A DNA stretch of 64,000 bases from Flectonema sp. DT1601 (lineage: Eukaryota): assembly GCA_964019425.1 (NCBI GenBank), contig OZ025793.1:1364001-1428000 (forward strand). The letters are read 5' to 3'. The position numbers and the translations under genes are program-made. The notes beneath the pieces are model-generated. The model saw only the letters and a program-made list of their open reading frames with translations. It searched no databases and was not told where the DNA came from. Position 1 is the first letter of the stretch; each line of letters begins with the position of its first letter. Of this stretch, positions 3,701 through 38,928 are shown one piece after another.

Positions 3701-3930
3701 ATGTCTTCCCCTCCATCGAAGGAAGAAGTAGCGCTAAAGCGTGCCCGAGTTCTCGGAATCTCATCTGCCATCCATTTAGTGATGTTATGGAATAGACCAA
3801 CTCGTATGGAGGCAGACATTGGGATTACATTAAATACACTCTCAGGTATTATTGGATTGGTTTGGTTCTTGACGAGGAGTACTTTCGGATTCCCATTATT
3901 TATTAACATCTTCTATGCTGCTGGAATCTC
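3701..3930 (+). repeat. 230-nt identical copy shared with 23903-24132 (N-terminal coding region)
   Basis: Identical by eye from the ATG to ...ctggaatctc at both loci. Confidence 0.95.
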
Positions 3931-5251
3931 TCTCATTATCAAAGTCTGGATAGATGGAAACAGTGATCAGATTCCCATCATGATTAGCTGTGGAGTATTA
4001 GTCACGGGAGCAATCATGTTGAGGAGTCATAATTCTGAATGGACGCAAACCAATTTATCACTCTTTCTATTTGGTGGTAGTAAGGCTTCACCATTCCAGA
4101 GTTCCATTACAGTCGTCATCAGAGATCCTTTTAAAGAATCTGAAGACACAATTCGTAGAAATGAAAGTAATCCTGTGATTCAATATCACTCTTGTTGGAA
4201 GAAGAAACACATCATACGAATACTAAATAAGAGAGGATGGTGTCCAGTAAAAGGAGATGGTCCAATTCAGGGAGGAATATGTTACGTGCAGAAGGTTTCC
4301 GGCTGCAAGTGCGGGTCCAACTGGAAGCTGCTTCCAAAGTTGCACGTTGACTGCATTGGTGGAAAAGTAAGTTTAGCAAAGTTACTGGCAAGGGACGGGC
4401 TGACTGGTGTGGCGCCACGGACTTTCAGCAACTTCGCTTCATTCCGTAAGGCGTTGACAGAAGGTAACGTATCGACAGGGAAGTGGTACGTGAAGGTCTC
4501 TCACTTGAATGGCAGGAGGGGAGTCATCTGTTTCAACTCACCAGCGGAGGCGGAGAAACACTGCGAAGCCGTTGAGAAAGATAAACCTTCCTGGTACAGG
4601 TACGTGATTCAAGAACAAGTACCAAACTTGTATTTATTTCAAGGGAAGAAGATGCTTCTTCGATTGTGGGGATTGGTAACTGTAGCGGGAGGTGAGGACA
4701 ACATTTGGTTCCACATCAGCAAACGTCTCCGTGCTAACATCATGAACTCATCATACGAGAACGACAGCACTGAACGAGATGCTGATGTTGAACATTGCAC
4801 TAAGAATGTATTCGACAATACATCTGATTGGGAACATTATGAACGTGTGTGGCCTAGGTGTGCTGAGGTTGCGGCATCAGTAGTGCAATCCATGATCCGT
4901 CTCTGGACTAAGAGAGGACTTCCTCCGATGTTGAATGATGGTCAGGGTTTCTTTAATCATTTAGCGTTTGATTTCATCCCAGCTGTTACCCCAAATGGTA
5001 TCCATCCTTACCTTATTGAAGTTAATGTTGATCCTTCATTTAGGAATCCTTGTCCTGAGACAAAGTATGTATTTATTTAGTATTCTTTTAATAGACGCTG
5101 TACAGTTATTGGTAGTCATACTTCCCACAGGGCATTCGCTGAAGATGTCGTCACGTTTTTTGTTGAAAAAGTCTCAAGCGACAGACAGCTTGCGATGCCC
5201 TGCCGTTACTTTACTTCGATGAGAATGTTAACAATTGAGTCGCTTAAGTGA
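3701..5251 (+). CDS. Tubulin-tyrosine-ligase (TTL/TTLL)-family ATP-grasp protein with N-terminal multi-TM module; exons 3701-5064 and 5131-5251
   Basis: Motifs WYVK..NGRRGV, YVIQEQV..GKKMLLRLW, FNHLAFDF, PYLIEVNVDPSF. Intron gtatgt...cccacag (5065-5130) removes the ORF stop and gives the C-terminus KAFAEDVVTFFVEK...LK*, homologous to exon 2 of the paralog. Confidence 0.75.
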
Positions 5252-6557
5252 TTGTACTGATCGAATTGTAATATTTACACTTTTTGATTACATCTCGAAG
5301 GGCTTACCTGATGAAACATTAGATTGATTATATTGTTGTTCAGTTGGTGTTGTCAATTAGTCAGCCTTTTTATTTAATTAACCTTCTTGTTACTGTTGTC
5401 TTCATTCGTTTTGTTTATTACCAAATCGTATTAGTTTCTTTCTTATTATTCTGTGTAAGGAAGTCATCACAGTAACTGACTTCTATTTCATTTACCCGTT
5501 TGAATTTAGATTCGTGTGCGTGTCATAACTTTATATCATTTCCACCACATCAGCCAACATCAGTTAATGTCTGACGATGGCAGCCGTGAAATTGATGTGG
5601 CGGCAAAGAACGTATTAGATGAACACGATTCGTACGAATCTCTGGAACCAACAATTCAATATCACTCTTGTTGGAAGAAGAAACACATCATACGAATACT
5701 AAATAAGAGAGGATGGTGTCCAGTAAAAGGAGATGGTCCAATTCAGGGAGGAATATGTTACGTGCAGAAAGTTTCCGGCTGCAAATGCGGGTCCAACTGG
5801 AAGCTGCTTCCAAAGTTGCACGTTGACTGCATTGGTGGAAAAGTAAGTTTGGCAAAGTTACTGGCAAGGGACGGGCTGACTGGTGTGGCGCCACGGACTT
5901 TCAGCAACTTCGCTTCATTCCGTAAGGCGTTGACAGAAGGTAACGTATCGACAGGGAAGTGGTACGTGAAGGTCTCTCACTTGAATGGCAGGAGGGGAGT
6001 CATCTGTTTCAACTCACCAGCGGAGGCGGAGAAACACTGCGAAGCCGTTGAGAAAGATAAACCTTCCTGGTACAGGTACGTGATTCAAGAACAAGTACCA
6101 AACTTGTATTTATTTCAAGGGAAGAAGATGCTTCTTCGATTGTGGGGATTGGTAACTGTAGCGGGAGGTGAGGACAACATTTGGTTCCACATCAGCAAAC
6201 GTCTCCGTGCTAACATCATGAACTCATCATACGAGAACGACAGCACTGAACGAGATGCTGATGTTGAACATTGCACTAAGAATGTATTCGACAATACATC
6301 TGATTGGGAACATTATGAACGTGTGTGGCCTAGGTGTGCTGAGGTTGCGGCATCAGTAGTGCAATCCATGATCCGTCTCTGGACTAAGAGAGGACTTCCT
6401 CCGATGTTGAATGATGGTCAGGGTTTCTTTAATCATTTAGCGTTTGATTTCATCCCAGCTGTTACCCCAAATGGTATCCATCCTTACCTTATTGAAGTTA
6501 ATGTTGATCCTTCATTTAGGAATCCTTGTCCTGAGACAAAGTATGTATTTATTTAGT
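4178..6557 (+). repeat. Near-identical ~904-nt direct repeat (4178-5081 and 5654-6557) covering the TTL domain
   Basis: Offset 1476 nt; three synonymous differences seen by eye; translated proteins identical over the tract. Confidence 0.95.
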
Positions 6558-11729: not shown

Positions 11730-12793
11730 AAATTACTCTGTTTTTTCTTTTAAAGGCTCGATATTTTTTTTTATTTTTTTTTTTAAAAATTATTATTAAT
11801 ATAATGTATCCTCGTCTCAAGTTTGTTCTTTTTGGCAGAGGAACTGTCGGTTTTATTAAAATTTTCATAATTATTAAATTACGTTTTCTTGAACCCAAAG
11901 AAGTGACGTACAAGTCTTCTGTATTACACCACCTCCTTCCCTCTAACGACTTATTCAGGTTTTTTTTTTTTTTTTTTTGAAATAAAGCTGTTGATAAAAA
12001 AATTTATTTTTTTTTTCAAAAAAAAAAAAAACTGGAATGAAATACCACAACTAACTGACGAAGGACTGAAGGGGAAAGGATTGAAAATATGTATTTTCAT
12101 ATAAATAAAACTTTTCTTTTTTTTTTTTTTTTTTTTTTAAAGTCTTGATTTAGTTTAGTTTTGATGAATATTAAAACTCGTAAATTAACTCAGCTGCTTG
12201 TATTGTTGTGCATGATTAGTTTTAAAGTAATTGTTTTCTTAAAAGTTATTTGTCTGGTCTCGTGAGCTGTTGGAGTTGTTCGCTTTGATAAAAGTTAAAA
12301 AAAATAAAATAATTCTACGGTGTTAAGTTACTGTTTTATACTTGGGGGGGGGAGACGGTGTTTTAGTTCTCTTTTTTCCCCTTTACAAACAGTAAATACT
12401 TCTATTCGCATAAACAGCAAACTAATAATGTCTAATAACGAATCCTATCAACCCGGATGTGGATAAACATGAAGAATGTCGTTTTTGTTTTGTAATTCTG
12501 TTTGTCTTCCGTGAGCGCCAGTAGTCTGTTTTCTGTATTGCTGGTTGTTACAAAACAAATTCGTTTTCTAATATTTTTTTTTTTTTTCTTCTTTATTAAG
12601 ACTACTAATGTTTTTTTTTTTTCGTACTGCTGCAATGTCCTGTGGAATTAGCTTCTCAATTTTCTTTGTTTTTTTTGCTAAAGACGCCGGTTGACACTTT
12701 CTACTCGCCATCATTTAGCTTTTTTTTGTAGCTCACAATTTTTTTTAATTTTTTATCTGCGTTCTTTGTTGACTTACTTCCCCCCTCCCCTTA

Positions 12794-12870
12794 TGTGGAC
12801 GGAATCCAGTTATAATGATTCATGTAATTTGTTGCGTGGTAACCCTTGATTTATTTATCCAAGTCTCCCC
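12794..12870 (+). repeat. Dispersed repeat fragment shared with 32485-32564
   Basis: tgtggac(g/a)gaatccagttata(a/g)tgattcatgt...ttgatttatttatccaagtc occurs at both loci. Confidence 0.85.
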
Positions 12871-14437: not shown

Positions 14438-16164
14438 CTTTAATAAGAGGCCAAAAACCCTGTTTTTGAGAAAAATCGAAAAATTTGACAAAGGGGAAAA
14501 GGGGTGTGGGGGAAAAATACAAAAAAATTACAGGGTGAAAGACACCCCCCCGCGCATTGAAAAAAAACTGAGGTCAGCCCGCAAGGGGGCCAAAATAACT
14601 TGAGAAAATGCAACAACAGCCTAAAAAAACACTGTTGCTTAGGACCCCTGGGTTCGCTTTGATTTTAGCAATGTTGTAGGAGTAGAGTGCTTCCGTTTCA
14701 TGTTTTTCGGTGGGATATGATTGTGTGTAGCAAAGGTATGGTTGTTGCAAACAGGGGCTGAATACTTGTCAATATTTTCGTGATATTGTTCGAAGCAGGG
14801 ATCCATGCATAAGAAAACCTCGCTTTTTGAAAAAGAAGTCGATGACCTTACTTTTTTTGAGAACAAATCCGTGAACTGCAGTCCCCAAAAATATCAAATT
14901 TTCGTAGGTAGTGACATTTTGTGTGAGTTTGGTGTGTTCCATGACCAATAAGTTGAGAACATGGCCTTTTTTTGAACTGAGCATATGTCCCGACGTCTTT
15001 TTCAGACTTCTTTTGGAGGGTGAAAACATTGAAGATAGAAATCTCTAACAAGTAGTGAAAGACTTTCAGGGTCCAGCGTTTTGTCATCAGAGTTCTTCTT
15101 GCCTTCCCCCTGATACCGTCTACGAGGTCAACACCACCCATTAGTTTGTTGTACTGATGGATCTGTACCGGTAAGTCGATGGTCACTTTTTGATGGATTT
15201 CCTTATTTTAGTCCATCACGTGGCTGTCTCATAATTCTCCTCGAGAGGCAATGTGCTGAAGACATGTACTTCTTTTGGATTGCCCCTGAATATATGTGAT
15301 GCACATTGTGCATTATGTGATGCACATTGTGCTAGGACTGAAAGTACGAGGCAGAGAACTTCTCCACCCGTCCCTGCGCCTCCGCCTTATTGATCTCGGA
15401 CCATTTGGGAACTATTGTTTCCCAAAAGCTGTGGATTTTGTAGAGCTTGTCAGCAGGTACGGGGTTGGTGACGGTGTAAAACTTTAGATTGGTTCGAATT
15501 TAGAGGAACCGATCTCAGGAAGCGAAGTGGGGTGTGTACGCCGGGTCTGATGTACCGTTCCTGTAATCTGAGATATTTGGTTTATTACAGAGACCCACGA
15601 GGATATTGAGAGTTTGAGTTCAGCTACGTTAAGATTGAGTGCCTAGTTGTTGCTGCAGTGCGAAATCATCTCATCACCTTTGGGGTGAACACAAGTTAAA
15701 ATTTCTGCAGTTCCTTCATCAATTTCAGGTCTGACATGTTCTGCAAGGACCGCCGAAACGTGTGTCGTTTTACCTTGGTGATTTTCTTGCTCCATTTCAG
15801 AGGGGAAATGCTTGGCTCTATTGTACTCTCTTCATCGCTCGAAGAAGACTCAGGAGCACCCAAATCTGGGATAGGTGACCCTACTGAATCATTTTCGATG
15901 GAAATAGTTTTAGGGATTTTAATTTTTGGCTGAAAACATGGGATAGTCATGGGCAACCTGGCTAAGACTGTTCCCAGTGCAGAAAAAAAAAAAAGAACTT
16001 TTTCTCAGAAAAAGCTGGTGATTTTTGCAGCACGATCCCACATAAAATTTGTCGTTTTTGGGCAGCTCTGGCTCCACCCTTGTACTCACAAGGTACATTT
16101 TTCCCCTTTGTCAAAAAAAAAAAAACGCGAAAGGCCCCTATAGTGGCCTTCAGGGCTTAAAGGG
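14436..16164 (-). mobile_element. piggyBac-superfamily DNA transposon, decayed and internally deleted (1729 bp)
   Basis: TTAA at 14432-14435 and 16165-16168; terminal inverted repeats CCCTTTAA...AGGCCA and TGGCCT...TTAAAGGG; transposase remnants inside. Confidence 0.9.
14639..15956 (-). pseudogene. Fragmented piggyBac transposase
   Basis: Segments YNKLMGGVDLVD...KRWTLKVFHYLLEISIFN (third catalytic-Asp region), C-terminal VFLCMDPCFEQYH and acidic N-terminal SSSDEES lie in separate short ORFs; total length is too short for a full transposase. Confidence 0.85.
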
Positions 16165-23902: not shown

Positions 23903-25270
23903 ATGTCTTCCCCTCCATCGAAGGAAGAAGTAGCGCTAAAGCGTGCCCGAGTTCTCGGAATCTCATCTGCCATCCATTTAGTGATGTTATGGAATAGACC
24001 AACTCGTATGGAGGCAGACATTGGGATTACATTAAATACACTCTCAGGTATTATTGGATTGGTTTGGTTCTTGACGAGGAGTACTTTCGGATTCCCATTA
24101 TTTATTAACATCTTCTATGCTGCTGGAATCTCGTGGGTAATGAAGGTTTGGTTGGATGGTGAGAACGACGGAATCCCCGCAGCCATCAGTTGCGGTACAC
24201 TAATTGCTGGAGCTGTGGGGTGGAGGAATCAGACTTTCGATTGGACTCAGTCGAAGTTGCACAAACTTCCGACGCAAATCCCTTCGAAATTAATTTCATT
24301 ATTTCTGGGTAACAGACCATCTCAACCGATTGCTAATCATGGAAGGACTTCTCCAATCGATAGAACGAAACCACCAAAAACCATCGCAGTCATCATCAAT
24401 CCTGAAGCAGGTCGTGGAGGTGCAAGGGTTGCTTGGGAAGAAGCAAAAGCCGTTCTAATCTCGAAGGATATCAAAATATTGAGTGTTCTTGAAACTCAGA
24501 AGTCAGGTGATGGAACTCACTTGGCCCGCGACTACGATGGTTCAGCTGACTGTTTGGTAGCAGTCGGGGGTGACGGTACTTTAAGTGAAGTGTTGAACGG
24601 AATTATGCAGCGCGAAAAGAAACTACCATTGGGATGCATTCCTGGAGGGACCTGCAACAACTTCTGTTTTGATTTAGGAATCAAAACCCCAACAGATGCT
24701 GCTTCTCGTATCATTACTGGTTGTATCGCTCCCATTGATGCTGCGCAGGTTCACCACAATGGGAGAGTTACTTACGGACTTAATGCGCTTGCTTGGGGTG
24801 TTGGTCTCAAGGCTGTCCAATTCGCTGAAAAATTGGGTTTTCTGGGACCTTTGAAGTTCGACGTCGGCGGTTTGCTGGCAATCTTAACTTTTACCCCGAC
24901 AATTGTAACTGCAAAGCTTACAAAGGGAGACAAGAAGTGGAATGTAACTCAGTGTTGTGTAATTGCTATGTCGCAGGTGTGCCAGAGAGCTGGAAATGGA
25001 TTTCGATTCGGTCCGATGGCTAAGTTAGACGACGGTCTTATGGACACTTGTATGTTACGTCAGATATCAGTCTTACGAACACTTGAACTGTTTGATGAAG
25101 TAAAGAGAGAAGGATCTCACATTCATGGATACGATACTGAATACTTTCAGTGGGATTCCATGTATTTCGAAACACCGACACCGACACCAATCTCTCTTGA
25201 TGGTGAAGATACTGGCACCACACCAGCTACAGTTAATGTTCTACACAAGGCTTTTGAATGCTATGTGTAG
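23903..25270 (+). CDS. Diacylglycerol/sphingosine-kinase-like (DAGK_cat, YegS/BmrU-like) lipid kinase with N-terminal multi-TM module
   Basis: Motifs IINPEAG, AVGGDGTLSEVLNG, IPGGTCNNF, LDDGLMD, LDGE. Confidence 0.88.
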   Translation: MSSPPSKEEVALKRARVLGISSAIHLVMLWNRPTRMEADIGITLNTLSGIIGLVWFLTRSTFGFPLFINIFYAAGISWVMKVWLDGENDGIPAAISCGTLIAGAVGWRNQTFDWTQSKLHKLPTQIPSKLISLFLGNRPSQPIANHGRTSPIDRTKPPKTIAVIINPEAGRGGARVAWEEAKAVLISKDIKILSVLETQKSGDGTHLARDYDGSADCLVAVGGDGTLSEVLNGIMQREKKLPLGCIPGGTCNNFCFDLGIKTPTDAASRIITGCIAPIDAAQVHHNGRVTYGLNALAWGVGLKAVQFAEKLGFLGPLKFDVGGLLAILTFTPTIVTAKLTKGDKKWNVTQCCVIAMSQVCQRAGNGFRFGPMAKLDDGLMDTCMLRQISVLRTLELFDEVKREGSHIHGYDTEYFQWDSMYFETPTPTPISLDGEDTGTTPATVNVLHKAFECYV

Positions 25271-32134: not shown

Positions 32135-32434
32135 GGTCCGGCGCAGTTATGACCCATAAACTGACTGTCATCTCACCTGATCCTTTTGTTTTCATTTCTT
32201 GCTGAGTGATATGGCAATGTGCTGCCCAATTTTTGTGCTTTTATAAAGCTTTCAGTATGCCCACAGTATAATTATATATGATTCGGATAACGTGGGGTGA
32301 ACGATCCTCGGTACTGTTCGGGGGTTTCTATTTTTCTTTCGTGGTATGTGGGCATATGGCACATATGGTCGTATCATAAAGGAAGCTGCTGTATATGGAA
32401 TAAAAAAGATTTTTTATTTTTTTCACCTCCCCCC
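32135..32434 (+). repeat. ~290-nt structured dispersed repeat, copy A (copy B at 36680-36966)
   Basis: High identity with copy B, starting at ggtccggcgcagttatgacc; long self-complementary fold. Confidence 0.9.
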
Positions 32435-33537
32435 ACTTGACAGCATTTCTTTCTCTGGTAGTTTATTTAAAGCATGCGATTTTGTGTGGACAGAATCCAG
32501 TTATAGTGATTCATGTCTAATTTGTTGCATGTTAACATTGATTTATTTATCCAAGTCCCTCCCCACTCCCAGATCATTTTCTTTTTGTTTTTTCTTGAGT
32601 TGTTTTTCAACCTGTTATCCTCTGGGCAAGGTGGGAGCCGATCACTTCCAGCCGAAGCTATAAAATTGCAATCTTCGCAATTGGGTCCTTACTAATGCAG
32701 GCTACCCACAACTAATTGACTGATAACTATTAATACTAACTAACTCAATCAAGTCAGTGTGCCTATTCGGGTCACTTACTTCCGTCACATTTCGGTGAGT
32801 GACTGTTTACTTATTTGTTTCTTCAGATCTTCTGTTACTGTTCATCATATTAACGGTCTAGAGAATATCATCCTTATGTGTGTTCTCTTCTCTGTTGTCA
32901 TGCGAAGGAACACAAGAAGGCTCTTTCTACTAATAAGGAACGTTCACTAATAATCCTCAGTGGTATGGATTAGTTTTCGGTCAAACGTGAACCAAATATT
33001 TCGCCGCCGGAATGTTATTTTCGAGGTTCTTCAAAACCGAGTGTGTTATTGTCTTTGTGAAGTTTTGTTTATTGCAACTGACGCACCCCCTCCACAGAAA
33101 GTTCTGTGCTTCCTCTCGCTAGGCATCGTCATCTTCAGGAATGTTAAATTCTCTTGTTTGGTATCAAACAGTTCTATTCCCCCTCGCATTGCGGGAGGTG
33201 AACCTTTTTGAGCGGAAACTTAATATTGGAGGATGTTACATTTCCACTCAAAGTAAACTACTGGACTGGTTGCAACCATTACCTCTGTCTGCCTACTTAC
33301 ACAACCAGACTTACCGGGTAACTTTAAGTTGGTTGTTCCGTGTGTTGCGTATGTTTTCTTTTTGTTGTTGTTGTAGTCGTTTTTTTTATTTTTTACAAAT
33401 AAACCCGCTTGTGCTCCTTAACGGTTGGTTTTTTTTCTTATTGTTCTCCCCTTCCCATATGAAGCCTCGACTAGAGTTAATTATGTATTAATAATTAATA
33501 ACAAGTTTTATTGTTTTTCTAAAAGTACAAATCTGAT

Positions 33538-35054: not shown

Positions 35055-36437
35055 ATGTTTAGGAAGCTATTACCCGCTTTAAGTAAAGTTACGTACCGAC
35101 CGTTCAAAAACCAGATTCGATTCAAAATGGCATCTCCTGACAACAAGTACCTTCAGGAAAGGGGAGTGAATGATTTGATGCACAGGGCAGTGAAGCATCT
35201 CGGGGCAGCAAGACCAGACGGGATTGGTGCGTGGCTGGCGACGTACTTCAAGCAACCGGCTACGACGAATGTTGAGAATAACGATGCTGATGGCCAGTGG
35301 TTACTTGATAACAAGGTACCTGTAGCGATGGAACAGGCAACTGTCGCCCTTGTCGCTGCGAAGCCTGCGGACCCAGCCGCGTGGCTTCAGCAGTACTTCG
35401 AAAAGCAACTTTGTGATGGTGGAATTGGTGACATTGAAGAAGTGAAGCCAAAGATCTTCTGCAGAGGACCTATCCCATACGATGTTGAGGCTGGGAAGAA
35501 ATACTTTTGGTGTTCATGTGGATATTCTCAAAACCAGCCATTCTGTGATGGTTCTCACAATGCGATTAACAAACAATACGGTTCAAAGTTCTTTCCAAAA
35601 GCATTCACAGCAGAAGCTAAGGAAACGGTTCTCTTTTGCGGTTGTAGAAGAAGTGAGGAACCTCCAATCTGCGACAGCAGTCACATTGATATTGAAGGAG
35701 AAGGTGGTAGAGATCCTGTCGTATTCGACTTCAGCAAATACAACGTCGAGTCAGCGAAGCACTACAATCATGACACAGTTCACTTAACTCTGAAGATCAT
35801 CGGCGGCAAGATGCACAAAATGGATTCCTCGTACCATTTCTCAATTCGGGCCGAGGAAGGTGGAAAGTCCAGACCGTACACACCAATTGCGATTGACTTC
35901 GCCACTGGCACAGTTCAGTTTCTAATTAAAAGGATTGAAGGGGGTGCCGTCTCACCGAAATTGTTTGATTTAAAGTCTGGCGATCAAATCCAAATGAAAG
36001 GACCTTCACCGGGTGAGTTTGAGTGGGAGAAGTCGAAGTACGGAAGAATCTTTTTAATTGGTGGCGGTTCTGGACTTACTCCGCTCTTTCAAATTGTTGA
36101 TGCAGCGATTGCTGACGCGGACAAGACTGCGGAGTTCCATCTGCTGTACGGAAACAAGACTGCTGATGATATTTTGTGGAAGTCTGAAATGGATGCTTTA
36201 CAATCAAAGAACTCTTCAACTTTTAAGACAATCACACATTGCATTAGTCGAGGTGATCTTCCATCTGAACAAAACTTTATTAAAGGGAGAGTCACTAAAG
36301 AAGTCATCGCTTCGAAGACTAATTCAATTACTGACAAGGACTACGCTGTCATCTGTGGTTTACCTGAATTCAACATGGCTATGTCGAAGGCTTGCAATCA
36401 ATTAGGATTTAGTAAAGATAAGATCATTCAATGTTAA
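35055..36437 (+). CDS. Probable mitochondrial fusion: 2x Dpy-30/RIIa-like docking domain, 2x CDGSH [2Fe-2S] domain, FAD/NAD(P)H cytochrome-b5-reductase-like oxidoreductase
   Basis: WCSCGYSQNQPFCDGSH and FCGCRRSEEPPICDSSH; RPYTP, GGGSGLTP, ICGLP; two YL..V..L....L....P......WL..YF helical repeats; presequence MFRKLLPALSKVTYR. Confidence 0.85.
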   Translation: MFRKLLPALSKVTYRPFKNQIRFKMASPDNKYLQERGVNDLMHRAVKHLGAARPDGIGAWLATYFKQPATTNVENNDADGQWLLDNKVPVAMEQATVALVAAKPADPAAWLQQYFEKQLCDGGIGDIEEVKPKIFCRGPIPYDVEAGKKYFWCSCGYSQNQPFCDGSHNAINKQYGSKFFPKAFTAEAKETVLFCGCRRSEEPPICDSSHIDIEGEGGRDPVVFDFSKYNVESAKHYNHDTVHLTLKIIGGKMHKMDSSYHFSIRAEEGGKSRPYTPIAIDFATGTVQFLIKRIEGGAVSPKLFDLKSGDQIQMKGPSPGEFEWEKSKYGRIFLIGGGSGLTPLFQIVDAAIADADKTAEFHLLYGNKTADDILWKSEMDALQSKNSSTFKTITHCISRGDLPSEQNFIKGRVTKEVIASKTNSITDKDYAVICGLPEFNMAMSKACNQLGFSKDKIIQC

Positions 36438-36679: not shown

Positions 36680-36966
36680 GGTCCGGCGCAGTTATGACCC
36701 ATAAACTGACTGTCATCTTACCTGATCCTTTTGTTTTCATTTCTTGCTGAGTGATATGGCAATGTGCTGCCCAATTTTTGTGGTACTTTCGGTAAGCCCG
36801 CAGTACAATTATAGAGCTTTGGACAACTGGGAGTGACGGATCCTCGGTACTGTTCCGGGACTTCTTTCGTGGTATGTGGGCATATGGCACATATGGTCGT
36901 ATTATAAAGGAAGCTGCTGTATATGGAATAAAAAAGATTTTTTTTTTTTTTTTCACCTTCCCCCCC
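36680..36966 (+). repeat. ~290-nt structured dispersed repeat, copy B
   Basis: Matches 32135-32434. Confidence 0.9.
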
Positions 36967-37185
36967 TCATTTCTTTCTCCCCCCCCAGTCCCATTAAAAA
37001 GAAGTTATTCCCTTTTTATGTTTCCTGTTTTTGTAAAAGTGCCTTTTCTTTTGATATTAACAACTAAAAGTATTTTTTCATTCGTACTTAATACCTAACG
37101 TTGTTACCTTACGTTGTCAAAGTTTCATCGTCGCTCGCGGAATTTCTCTTTTGTTTTCATTAGTTTTTCAACCAATTAACAAACT

Positions 37186-37501
37186 CCGAAACCAACCACC
37201 ATTTGTTTGTTGTCCTACGAATTTTTGCGTTTGATTTTTTCGATTGACTGATGATTATTAATACTAACAAAACTAAGTAACTCTTGAAACTAGAGAAGGG
37301 CAAACGTGATGAGTAGGACAGGCCTGGCACCGCAGTGTCCCCCCTTGCTTTCTTCGCTGAAGAGGGCTGGGTAAGGGGAATGGTCCGAAGAAAGATTGTT
37401 TTTAATCTTAGCCCGAAACCAACTTGTTTGTTGTCCTACGAAATTTTGCCTTTTTTTTTTTTTTGATTGACTGATAATTATTAGTAGTAACTCTTGAAAC
37501 T
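37186..37501 (+). mobile_element. Retrozyme-like partial tandem repeat (period ~227 nt; direct repeats 37186-37291 and 37413-37501)
   Basis: ccgaaaccaac...ttgtttgttgtcctacgaa...gattgactgat...gtaactcttgaaact occurs twice and brackets hammerhead motifs; no ORF. Confidence 0.55.
37341..37421 (+). ncRNA. Hammerhead ribozyme core with non-canonical strand order; predicted cleavage after C37385
   Basis: CTGAAGA 37357-37363; stem I TTTCTTCG 37349-56 / CGAAGAAA 37386-93; stem II GGGCTGG 37364-70 / TTAGCCC 37408-14; GAAA 37415-18; stem III ACCA 37418-21 / TGGT 37381-84; GUC triplet 37383-85. Confidence 0.7.
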
Positions 37502-38928
37502 GATTTACGAGAAATTTGGAATAAACTCACTGACAAGGAGTTTAAGATTTATAGCCTGAAACTACCAGTGTTAAACGGAACAGCAGAACAATTCATTTAA
37601 TGTTTTTTTCACTACAATCTTATTTTCTCAACTTCTAACTAATGTCCCCCAATTGGTCGCGAAGAAGCGAAGTTCTTTGAAAAATTACTTTTTTCCCCCG
37701 TTGTTCTTATTTTTTGTTTCCTTTTTTTTTTTCTTTGCAAGTGATAATTTCATTTAAATGTAAAGTTTGAAACTTAATAAAATAAAATGAAACTTTTAAA
37801 GTAACTTGTCCCACTTGAGACAGCTTCCCGACGTCTTTTGATCGCCTTTGGTGAACATCAGCCAAGAGATTTGTCTCCAACGCTTTTAATTTTCCTTTTG
37901 TACCTACAAATGGAGAATCGTGACATGACTTTTGTTCCAGAGTAAAAAATATAAAAAGCAAAGTATTTTTTTTTTTTTTTTTTTTTAATGTTATGATGTA
38001 TACTACAACTATATTATAATATATTATTAACTTTCGAAGAGTTTCATTTGGTGACTTTTGAAATTCCTTGCGTGAGTGAGTGTCGCTTCCCAGTAGATTT
38101 TTCTTTTTTCAGTCATCTCATTTTCGTTAATATTTTTTCCACAAAACGTGCGACTGAAGGTTGGCTGGCACTCTGCCGTTACCTTCCAGAAATGCTTAAG
38201 TAGCTTGAGGTTACTTTTCTCCCGCCCGTTCTAGCGAACGTGGCGATAGTAATATGAAGGCTTCTGATTTTGAAAAATCTCTCTTTTTATTTTATTTTAT
38301 TTTTTATTTTTAATAATATTTTACAACTTTGAAAAAAAATAACATTTTGTCCTCCTTTTGAGAGGTTCCTTTTTTTCTTTTTTTTTTTTTTGTTCTAATT
38401 TTTTATAACAAAATTTAAACTCAACCCTCCTAAACGTTGTCTGCATTAGATTCTCTTCTGTAGACTCTCTGATGAGAATCAAACTGAGCTGTGGTACGTC
38501 ATCCCGTAGGTATCAGCCAGGCCTTCAGGATTTCAATAAATATTTTTTGTAGTAAAGGGCGTGCCGTCAGTTTGTTAGTTGACCCGAAATACGGATATTG
38601 CAGAGCGTGTCTCTCAACCATCCACACAAATATAAAATGATTGCTTTTAATTAAGAAGCAAGTTCAATGAAACGAGCTAGAGTCCGACTGCCATCTTCCC
38701 ATCTTACGACTTTTAATGCAAGAAGACTCCCTTGTCAGGGTGACACCCGGACAGGTGACTTGTTAATTTTCAACTAAATAATTATTTTGTGTTTAAATTA
38801 AATAACTTTCTCTACTTCACCAGCTGGCAGTAAACAAAATTATAAGAAATCGAAATAACAACAAAAACAAACCCAGTTAGCGATAGATTTCTGTTGTTAA
38901 GTTCTCTCCCACCAGTTGAATACAATTG

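What the first reader, a model, noticed from the sequence alone, without database searches (positions are those of the whole stretch)
37341..37421. Hammerhead ribozyme with scrambled (non-circularly permuted) strand order, possibly a split or dimer-activated ribozyme
Seen in sequence: all conserved hammerhead core nucleotides are present with correct pairing. These are C3-A9 = CUGAAGA (37357-63), G10.1-C11.1 (37364/37414), G12-A15.1 = GAAA (37415-18), U16.1/C17 in GUC (37383-85), an 8-9-bp perfect stem I, a 7-bp stem II and a 4-bp stem III. Established: type I/II/III hammerheads are circular permutations of the order CUGANGA, GAAA, UH. Here the order is CUGAAGA, GUC, GAAA, which is none of them. 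Both linkers are themselves structured. CCCCTTGC (37341-48) pairs with GTAAGGGG (37371-78), closing the CUGAAGA strand as a hairpin loop. GATTG-TTTT-TAATC (37394-407) caps the GUC/GAAA module. With stems I and II these form a gap-free four-way junction. Inference: the RNA is two hairpin modules that assemble a hammerhead by loop-loop pairing. With only 2 nt between the modules this looks sterically hard in cis unless the 37341/37378 helix melts, so cleavage may need two copies (tandem monomers or a dimer). Standard hammerhead models would be expected to miss this topology.
Basis: partly seen in the sequence, partly recalled or inferred. Interest (0 to 1): 0.92.

Follow-up and report, generated by a model that had tools for sequence, protein, structure and literature searches.

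The report
Type-CSG hammerhead in a diplonemid repeat
This stretch encodes all the parts of a hammerhead ribozyme (a predicted self-cutting RNA) in a rare scrambled order that I found published for only two orphan environmental sequences, and here it sits in a small multi-copy, likely mobile repeat of a protist that is likely a diplonemid, which would give that rare RNA a host and a probable job.

Summary
Every core base and helix is there, and 0 of 3,823 shuffled windows give the four-helix pattern. The strand order is not new: it is the type-CSG hammerhead of Eckert et al. 2023 (PMC10085705). Their two sequences have the same 8-bp I/II helix and 2-nt linker and cut during transcription of single-copy constructs, so a dimer is not needed. 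What is new: (1) the host is likely a diplonemid, and the paper found CSG in no known organism; (2) stems I and II are each 2 bp longer, and a hairpin replaces the short linker, giving a perfect four-way junction that the published search pattern misses; (3) it lies in a ~210-bp unit preceded by a diverged partial copy, and 8 of 10 laid contigs carry pieces of it with other flanks; (4) one low-depth variant has the U3-A8 core swap; (5) the older upstream copy resembles the 3' half of published CSG-1/2. Best reading: a cis-acting, probably slow ribozyme of a small non-coding retroelement. Cutting, copy number and the mobilising enzyme are untested.

The parts
37341..37348 (+). 5' arm of the I/II helix that closes block C
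   Evidence: 8 bp with 37371-37378, 1 G-U; same place and length as in published CSG-1/2
37349..37356 (+). stem I, 5' strand
   Evidence: 8 of 8 Watson-Crick pairs with 37386-37393
37357..37363 (+). core C3-A9 (CUGAAGA)
   Evidence: sequence; a variant contig reads U3/U7/A8 (aligned by eye)
37364..37370 (+). stem II, 5' strand, starting at G10.1
   Evidence: 7 bp with 37408-37414, 2 G-U
37371..37378 (+). 3' arm of the I/II helix
37379..37380 (+). 2-nt linker between the I/II helix and stem III
   Evidence: sequence; 2 nt also in CSG-1/2
37381..37385 (+). stem III 5' strand (37381-84, U16.1 = 37384) and C17; predicted cut between 37385 and 37386
   Evidence: 4 of 4 pairs; cut site inferred by analogy with hammerheads
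37386..37393 (+). stem I, 3' strand
37394..37407 (+). extra hairpin (5 bp plus 4-nt loop); fourth arm of the four-way junction, where CSG-1/2 have a 5-nt linker
   Evidence: mid-pair probability 0.99 in the nested ensemble
37408..37421 (+). block G: stem II 3' strand, C11.1, GAAA (37415-18), stem III 3' strand
   Evidence: a diverged contig stops matching exactly at 37421
37293..37320 (+). 5' side of an outer rod that encloses the ribozyme: basal stem from 37293, GUGAUGA 37306-12, 8-bp helix arm 37313-20
   Evidence: fold and pair check; an RNA-library contig starts matching at 37293
37432..37456 (+). 3' side of the outer rod: helix arm 37432-39, GAAA 37440-43, basal-stem partner, running into a T-run
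37413..37501 (+). 3' part of the repeat unit (block G plus tail), directly repeated upstream
   Evidence: local alignment with 37186-37291, score 113, 0 of 1000 shuffles; nhmmer E 2e-10
37169..37291 (+). older, diverged partial copy: stem I 3' strand and short linker like published CSG-1/2, block G, tail; no block C
   Evidence: comparison with the published alignment by eye
32715..32743 (+). 29-bp remnant of the tail in a paralogous intergenic region
   Evidence: 26 of 29 identical to 37243-37271, 0 of 1000 shuffles

Best explanation
The stretch has every conserved base and helix of a hammerhead in the order C-S-G and is likely a cis-acting type-CSG self-cleaving ribozyme, carried by a small multi-copy non-coding repeat that likely moves as a retroelement in a protist that is likely a diplonemid. 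Shown by sequence: the four helices, the core, the ~210-bp unit (37293-37501), the diverged partial copy in front of it, and other copies with other flanks. Inferred: the RNA first forms two hairpins (I/II helix; stem III with the extra hairpin). Their loops then pair as stems I and II, the four-way junction holds the far ends of stems I and II together in place of the usual loop-loop contact, and the chain is cut after C37385, probably slowly. Inferred, less firmly: the cut frees the element's RNA from the host's long unidirectional transcript (or trims tandem copies), and an unidentified reverse transcriptase, perhaps of a Penelope-like or other non-LTR element, copies it into new sites as 5'-truncated and head-to-tail partial copies.
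For: Core and helices exact, and beyond chance. Same architecture as the two tested CSG ribozymes with different stem sequences: I/II helix 8 vs 8 bp, linker 2 vs 2 nt, stem I 8 vs 6, stem II 7 vs 5, stem III 4 vs 5; stems I and II are both 2 bp longer, so their offset is kept. Those two cut in single-copy transcripts. Variant X1 record 3 matches 37370-37421, stops matching exactly at the end of stem III, and its 21-nt loose 5' end agrees with 37348-37368 at 17 of 21 places; the 4 changes are position 2.1, C3 to U, N7 to U and G8 to A (by eye). U3-A8 for C3-G8 is a described core covariation in Penelope-like-element hammerheads (PMC4209133, passages). 8 of 10 laid contigs show element pieces joined to flanks not in this stretch, with 5' match starts at 37188, 37293, 37340, 37343 and 37401; in 3 of them (X1 record 2, X2 records 5 and 7) the printed upstream flank holds the tail's CTAAC motif. 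Host: WDR3 is 62% identical to the Diplonema papillatum protein, other named hits 45% or less; 20 of 20 long ATG ORFs and the ribozyme lie on the + strand, as in Diplonema gene clusters (PMC10161547, passages).
Against: No cleavage assay. The nested minimum-energy fold pairs the stem I 5' strand with G8-A9-G10.1 (-27.4 kcal/mol, z -1.87), a trap that forms first; ViennaRNA cannot model the pseudoknotted fold. Two RNA-library contigs bridge the cut site and none of the 10 begins at 37386, although contigs cannot show ends or strand. The U3-A8 variant is one 151-nt contig of depth 2; its 10 other differences were not printed, so compensation in the stems, including the partner of the changed position 2.1, is unseen. 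At least one copy looks decayed (X2 record 8). No reverse transcriptase or GIY-YIG hit in 101 intergenic frames. No clear target-site duplication: the 15-bp repeat at 37277/37487 may be part of the tail. No whole genome is held, so copy number is unknown, and the contigs of X2 and X3 may come from related organisms.
Confidence: 0.62

Rival explanations
1. The element descends from a working type-CSG ribozyme, but this copy is trapped in an inactive hairpin or cuts too slowly to matter; it is a passenger repeat.
For: The competing hairpin buries G8, A9 and G10.1 (-18.7 kcal/mol for 37341-78; pair probability about 0.5 in the nested ensemble). Uncut sequence is present in two RNA-library contigs. 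Published CSG rates are low. Decayed copies exist.
Against: This copy has no broken core base or stem pair. The identical or near-identical ribozyme recurs in two other runs. The U3-A8 change would also weaken the trap (inference).
Confidence: 0.14
2. A host-retained ribozyme that cuts the polycistronic pre-mRNA or a 3' UTR between the CDGSH/reductase gene (ends 36437) and the ArsC-like gene (starts 38926), in the way SIDER2 retroposons promote mRNA cleavage in Leishmania.
For: Sense strand of a unidirectional gene array. Diplonema is thought to control genes after transcription (PMC10161547, passages). SIDER2 precedent (PMC5509151, search listing and start of abstract only).
Against: Copies have varied flanks and truncations. 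The paralogous region near 32.7 kb keeps only a tail remnant. No evidence of a conserved position.
Confidence: 0.1
3. One reading: the fold cannot close in cis because of the 2-nt linker, so cutting needs two molecules (dimer or tandem copies).
For: The authors of the CSG paper note that the short linker joins points far apart in the hammerhead crystal structure. Dimeric hammerheads are common in animal retroelements (PMC4209133, PMC7229834; passages). I saw no concentration series for CSG in the parts read.
Against: Single-copy CSG-1/2 transcripts with the same linker and helix cut, CSG-2 almost fully in 2 h. The adjacent copy lacks block C and has a different stem I strand, so it cannot complete a dimer here. 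Stem III is a full 4-bp helix, unlike the minimal helix III of dimeric hammerheads.
Confidence: 0.1
4. A chance arrangement, or another small RNA (for example a box C/D-like or kink-turn RNA) whose sequence only mimics a hammerhead.
For: GUGAUGA at 37306-12 and CUGA at 37357-60 look like boxes C and D (motifs recalled). The nested fold is only modestly stable (z -1.29 to -2.0).
Against: 0 of 3,823 shuffles give the four-helix pattern. It matches a tested architecture helix for helix. A variant keeps U4, G5, A6 and A9 and swaps the 3-8 pair. No Rfam snoRNA match.
Confidence: 0.04

Closest known systems
Type-CSG hammerhead ribozymes CSG-1 and CSG-2 (Eckert, Friedrich, Weinberg, Weinberg 2023, PMC10085705; read parts 1-6 of 8 of the main text, supplement part 2 and all 28 CSG passages)
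   Same: Block order C-S-G, full core, 8-bp I/II helix directly flanking stems I and II, 2-nt linker to stem III, GUC cut site. The older upstream copy also shares CAACCA, UUAA and CCGAAAC with their 3' halves.
   Different: Different stem sequences; N7 is A; stems I and II 2 bp longer, stem III 1 bp shorter; a hairpin replaces the 5-nt linker and makes a perfect four-way junction; enclosed in an outer rod. Found in a 343-kb eukaryotic contig and in a multi-copy repeat, whereas the published ones (5 sequences, 2 unique) came from soil metagenome DNA with no known host.
Type-SGC hammerheads (HRIMA-1 and variants, same paper)
   Same: Non-circular permutation; a helix brings stems I and II together.
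   Different: Order S-G-C; found almost only in metatranscriptomes, beside hairpin ribozymes that the authors assign to circular virus-like RNAs.
Animal non-LTR retrozymes (Cervera and de la Pena 2020, PMC7229834, passages; Li et al. 2026 bioRxiv 10.64898/2026.07.22.740005, part 1 of 5)
   Same: Small (170-400 nt) non-coding, low-GC hammerhead repeat with head-to-tail copies.
   Different: Those carry type I hammerheads in each of two or more units; here the type is CSG, only one unit is complete, the host is a protist, and circular RNA is untested.
Hammerheads in the pseudo-LTRs of Penelope-like elements (PMC4209133 and PMC8557442, passages)
   Same: Ribozyme near the 3' end of a unit, partial tandem layout, U3-A8 core variant.
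   Different: Those are type I or minimal motifs flanking an RT/GIY-YIG ORF; no such ORF was found here. PMC8557442 does not mention euglenozoans or diplonemids in its main text.
Pr77 HDV-like ribozymes of trypanosomatid L1Tc/ingi/SIDER elements (PMC4035085, PMC3383444; search listing and start of abstract only)
   Same: A self-cleaving ribozyme in a euglenozoan retroelement, thought to release the element from host co-transcripts.
   Different: HDV-like fold at the 5' end, not a hammerhead.

Membership tests
Hammerhead ribozyme | Core C3-U4-G5-A6-N7-G8-A9, G12-A13-A14, pairs G10.1-C11.1 and A15.1-U16.1, non-G at 17 | tested here: met
Hammerhead ribozyme | Stems I, II and III abutting the core | tested here: met
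   8, 7 and 4 bp; null models
Hammerhead ribozyme | Site-specific self-cleavage after H17 | not testable with these tools
   needs an in vitro assay; contigs cannot show RNA ends
Type-CSG permutation (Eckert 2023) | Uninterrupted blocks in the order C, S, G | tested here: met
   against the definition
Type-CSG permutation (Eckert 2023) | [quoted passage not shown] | tested here: met
   8 bp and 2 nt, as in the published alignment
Type-CSG permutation (Eckert 2023) | Covariation in the stems among homologues | tested here: inconclusive
   One variant shows the U3-A8 core swap, but its stem changes were not printed; collection scans found no homologue
Published CSG-1/CSG-2 sequence family (not filed here) | Fits the published RNAmotif pattern (CUGAUGAG, at least 4 stem III pairs before UH, at most 8 nt between stem I and stem II) | tested here: not met
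   By eye against the pattern: N7 is A, 3 pairs, 14-nt linker
Animal non-LTR retrozymes (not filed here) | Type I hammerhead in each of at least two tandem units | tested here: not met
   type CSG, one complete unit; definition
Animal non-LTR retrozymes (not filed here) | Non-coding unit of about 170-400 nt | tested here: met
   209-bp unit, 227-bp repeat spacing; the frames over it have no credible Pfam hit
Animal non-LTR retrozymes (not filed here) | Expressed as linear and circular monomers | not testable with these tools
   only contigs were available; no joints listed
Autonomous Penelope-like element (not filed here) | RT plus GIY-YIG ORF between pseudo-LTRs | tested here: not met
   0 of 101 intergenic frames hit an RT or GIY-YIG family; flanking genes are host genes
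Pr77 / SIDER retroposons (not filed here) | HDV-like ribozyme in a 77-79-nt 5' hallmark | tested here: not met
   no Rfam match in the window; the motif is a hammerhead

The most novel reading that the evidence does not exclude
Type-CSG hammerheads are the processing ribozyme of an undescribed family of small diplonemid retroelements. The orphan soil-metagenome CSG-1/2 belong to the same family and so come from a related protist. Within the family the ribozyme has evolved from a short-linker form (older upstream copy) to a four-way-junction form nested in a second hammerhead-core-like or kink-turn-like rod. This would give a non-circularly permuted ribozyme its first cellular host, a function, and thousands of natural variants for covariation.
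Probability: 0.35. Interest if true: 0.76.

Novelty: new variant of a known kind. Interest (0 to 1): 0.55.

Why it matters
Eckert et al. rated the biological evidence for type CSG as weak: two similar sequences, little covariation, no known organism. A third example with different stems, a perfect four-way junction, a natural U3-A8 variant and a eukaryotic host would settle that CSG is a real, evolving class. It also points to a role in retroelement RNA processing and shows that the published search pattern is too tight. Diplonemids are among the most abundant marine protists (PMC10161547), and my paper searches found no hammerhead described in their nuclear genomes. The four-way-junction form is a good construct for solving how a 2-nt linker fits the hammerhead fold.

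Tried and rejected
Rfam: no gathering-score hit in the window; 6 chance-level hits near the element. Whole-genome search: no assembly is held. Pattern scans for relatives: viral contigs 0, 6, 0 and 7 loci, metagenome contigs 107, prokaryote genomes 9. Only 2 of these 129 loci pass even a loose CSG stem filter (L037, whose stem I is four G-U pairs; L066, with a 3-bp stem III), and I rejected both. The positive control failed: the pattern fits published CSG-1/2 by eye but did not return them, probably because short contigs are not held, so these negatives say little. A phage sequence seen in 8 loci (L001, L004-6, L042, L043, L097, L107) has some CSG-like pieces but no stem I; rejected. X2 and X3 have no contig cover on the unique flanks of this locus, so they do not show that this copy is transcribed, and no silent control stretch was laid. 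The right-hand stops of the contigs come from a repeat that the tool skipped and are not RNA ends. An 18-nt motif from the upstream flank of X2 record 6 is absent from the window (0 matches at 3 mismatches). The paralogous region at 32.6-33.1 kb could not be used as an empty site: it shares no significant match with 37293-37412 or 37502-37800. Reading the outer rod as a second complete hammerhead fails: G at position 3 and 3 of 6 mismatches in its would-be stem III. A box C/D reading was considered and not tested against rRNA. No covariance model was built, because only one full sequence was held as a file. Earlier findings by sequence, genome and relatives returned nothing.

Full report
Observation. 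The core reads CUGAAGA (37357-63), GUC (37383-85) and GAAA (37415-18), with G10.1-C11.1 at 37364/37414. Stem I has 8 Watson-Crick pairs, stem II 7 pairs (2 G-U), stem III 4 Watson-Crick pairs. An 8-bp helix (37341-48/37371-78) closes the first module and a 5-bp hairpin (37394-407) sits between stems I and II. These four helices meet without a gap, and the junction can slide by one pair. It is the only strong hammerhead-like match in the window. In 3,823 locally shuffled windows, 1 gave a CSG-order match with stems of 8/7/4 and none gave 6/5/4 plus an I/II helix of 6 bp or more. Rfam has no match.

The order is published. Eckert et al. 2023 (PMC10085705; I read main-text parts 1-6 of 8, supplement part 2 and all 28 CSG passages) split the hammerhead into blocks C, G and S and name all six orders. 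This one is C-S-G. They found 5 such sequences, 2 unique, in soil metagenome DNA, none in a known organism, and both cut at the predicted site during transcription, at 0.004 and 0.026 per min. Their alignment shows an 8-nt I/II helix, a 2-nt linker, stem I 6 bp, stem II 5 bp (6 with the A9-G12 pair that they draw), stem III 5 bp and a 5-nt linker. The window's copy keeps the helix length and the 2-nt linker, adds 2 bp to each of stems I and II, and swaps the 5-nt linker for a hairpin, all with different sequences. It fails their RNAmotif pattern at three points (N7, stem III length, linker length; by eye). A search for 'type-CSG' finds only that paper; a search for non-circular hammerheads with retrotransposons since 2023 lists 5 papers, of which only this one mentions type SGC (listing only).

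The dimer idea is not needed. The published single-copy transcripts have the same short linker and cut. The authors themselves note that the linker joins points far apart in the crystal structure, and I saw no concentration series, so a dimer is not excluded. At this locus no second complete copy is adjacent.

Host. Three window proteins sit on one 343-kb ENA contig. WDR3/Utp12 is 62% identical over its full length to the Diplonema papillatum protein, 54-64% to three unnamed EukProt entries, and 45% or less to other named hits. All 20 ATG ORFs of 150 aa or more lie on the + strand, like the unidirectional clusters of D. papillatum (PMC10161547, passages). So the host is likely a diplonemid, and the ribozyme is on the strand that would be transcribed. 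It lies 0.9 kb after a CDGSH/FAD/NAD-binding reductase gene and 1.5 kb before an ArsC-like gene. That genome paper has no 'ribozyme' in its main text and no 'hammerhead' in 7 supplementary files; it lists 8 files, so one was not searched and may bear on this. A search for 'diplonemid' with 'hammerhead' lists 4 papers with 1-2 mentions each, none about this by title or start of abstract (listing only).

The element around it. 37413-37501 is directly repeated at 37186-37291 (score 113, 0 of 1000 shuffles). The repeat starts inside block G. The ribozyme is enclosed by a rod: 37313-20 pairs with 37432-39 (8 of 8), and a basal stem starts at 37293. The internal loop between them reads GUGAUGA on one side and GAAA on the other, like a second hammerhead half-core with G at position 3, or like a kink-turn. 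0 of 1,521 shuffles give this pattern, but it was defined after I saw it, and I cannot explain it.

Other copies. Three public runs hold parts of the stretch, and I laid them twice. Of 10 contigs on 37120-37520, one from X1 is identical to the window's unique flank over 150 nt, so X1 likely holds this organism. Eight carry element pieces joined to flanks not in this stretch, and one (X3 record 10) cannot be judged. The 5' match starts vary (37188, 37293, 37340, 37343, 37401), and in three the printed upstream flank holds the tail's CTAAC motif, which suggests head-to-tail partial copies or a preferred target. Two RNA-library contigs hold the whole ribozyme: X3 record 10 with 0 differences, and X2 record 6 (depth 25.5) with a change at 37327, a one-base gap at 37339 and one unlisted change. 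Both bridge the cut site, and no contig starts at 37386. Contigs cannot show ends or strand, so this only says that uncut, re-joined, antisense or DNA forms exist. X2 record 8 looks decayed. X2 and X3 are marine metatranscriptomes and may hold related species.

A core variant. X1 record 3 (151 nt, depth 2) matches 37370-37421 with 10 unprinted differences and stops matching exactly at the last base of stem III. Its 21-nt loose 5' end agrees with 37348-37368 at 17 of 21 places (by eye). The four changes are position 2.1, C3 to U, A7 to U and G8 to A, while U4, G5, A6 and A9 stay. U3-A8 for C3-G8 is a described core covariation in the hammerheads of Penelope-like elements (PMC4209133, passages). 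This is the best sign of selection on ribozyme function, but it rests on one low-depth contig, and the partner of position 2.1 is unseen.

A link to the published sequences. Just upstream of the repeated block G, 37169-37192 reads CAACCA, TTAA and CCGAAAC with the spacing of the 3' halves of CSG-1/2 (1 match in the window, 0 of 100 shuffles; the pattern was set after I saw the likeness, and the region is A/C-rich). The likeness extends a little upstream by eye, with the GUC site decayed and block C absent. This suggests that the older copy is a relic of a short-linker CSG ribozyme related to the published ones, and that those may come from a related protist. It is a lead, not a result.

How it most likely works. 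Shown: the core, five helices, the repeat layout, other copies. Inferred: two hairpins form, their loops pair as stems I and II, the four-way junction holds the far ends of stems I and II together in place of the usual loop-loop contact, and the chain is cut after C37385. A competing hairpin that buries G8-A9-G10.1 is the nested minimum-energy fold, so cutting is probably slow or conditional. Inferred less firmly: the cut releases or trims the RNA of a small non-autonomous retroelement, as hammerheads do in retrozymes and Penelope-like elements and as HDV-like ribozymes are thought to do for trypanosomatid L1Tc (listing only). No partner enzyme was found: 0 of 101 intergenic frames hit an RT or GIY-YIG family (I sent 101 of the 139 frames and left out the 38 beyond 58,594). 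I could not test whether diplonemids have Penelope-like elements.

Searches for relatives failed. 129 loci from five pattern scans with hits (two more scans gave none) held no convincing CSG fold. The published sequences were not returned either, so the collections are not a fair test. Earlier notes of this scan report another type-CSG copy in another genome and many rearranged hammerheads in animal Naiad and HERO elements. I did not test them; they are leads only.

Verdict. A real feature and very probably a ribozyme or a recent descendant of one. It is a new variant of a known but very rare kind, not a new topology. The added value is the host, the mobile-repeat context, the four-way junction and the natural core variant. 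Interest 0.55; 0.76 if the family link and retroelement role hold.

Noticed in passing
window 37306-37320 and 37432-37443: A second hammerhead-core-like half (GUGAUGA, 8-bp helix closed by G-C, then GAAA) encloses the whole ribozyme. It also reads as a kink-turn-like internal loop. 0 of 1,521 shuffles give it (pattern set after the fact). Position 3 is G and the would-be stem III is broken.
   Followed up: partly
window 37293-37464: The rod begins exactly at 37293, where an RNA-library contig starts to match, and ends in a T-run, so the structured part could be a discrete ~165-nt RNA.
   Followed up: partly
window 32135-32455 and 36680-36979: A ~300-bp non-coding direct repeat (85% identical), each copy followed within about 300 bp by the element's tail motif. 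It could be a segmental duplication or a second repeat family.
   Followed up: partly
window 12791-12870 and 32482-32564: An 80-bp dispersed intergenic repeat, 87% identical.
   Followed up: no
window 14851-15207 (- strand): Fragment of a DDE transposase (PF13843, E 2.6e-06) in the long intergenic region 11.7-17.5 kb.
   Followed up: no
window 3701-3930, 4178-5081, 5654-6557, 23903-24132: Gene mosaics from recent duplication: the first 230 bp of ORF 3701 are identical to the start of ORF 23903, and 904 bp of ORF 3701 recur at 99.7% in ORF 5567.
   Followed up: no
window 35055-36437: A protein joining two CDGSH iron-sulfur stretches to FAD- and NAD-binding reductase domains, directly upstream of the element.
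   Followed up: no
window 37262, 32734 and loose ends: The element's tail carries TACTAAC/CTAAC after a T-run, which resembles a splice branch point (motif recalled). The element may carry or target trans-splicing signals.
   Followed up: partly
L001, L004-L006, L042, L043, L097, L107: One phage-contig sequence recurs in 8 loci with CUGAAGA, GUC and GAAA in C-S-G order, a stem III, a partial stem II and a palindrome, but no stem I.
   Followed up: partly
L075:659-728 region: A conventional type I (CGS) hammerhead candidate with stems of 5, 6 and 8 bp in a metagenome contig.
   Followed up: no
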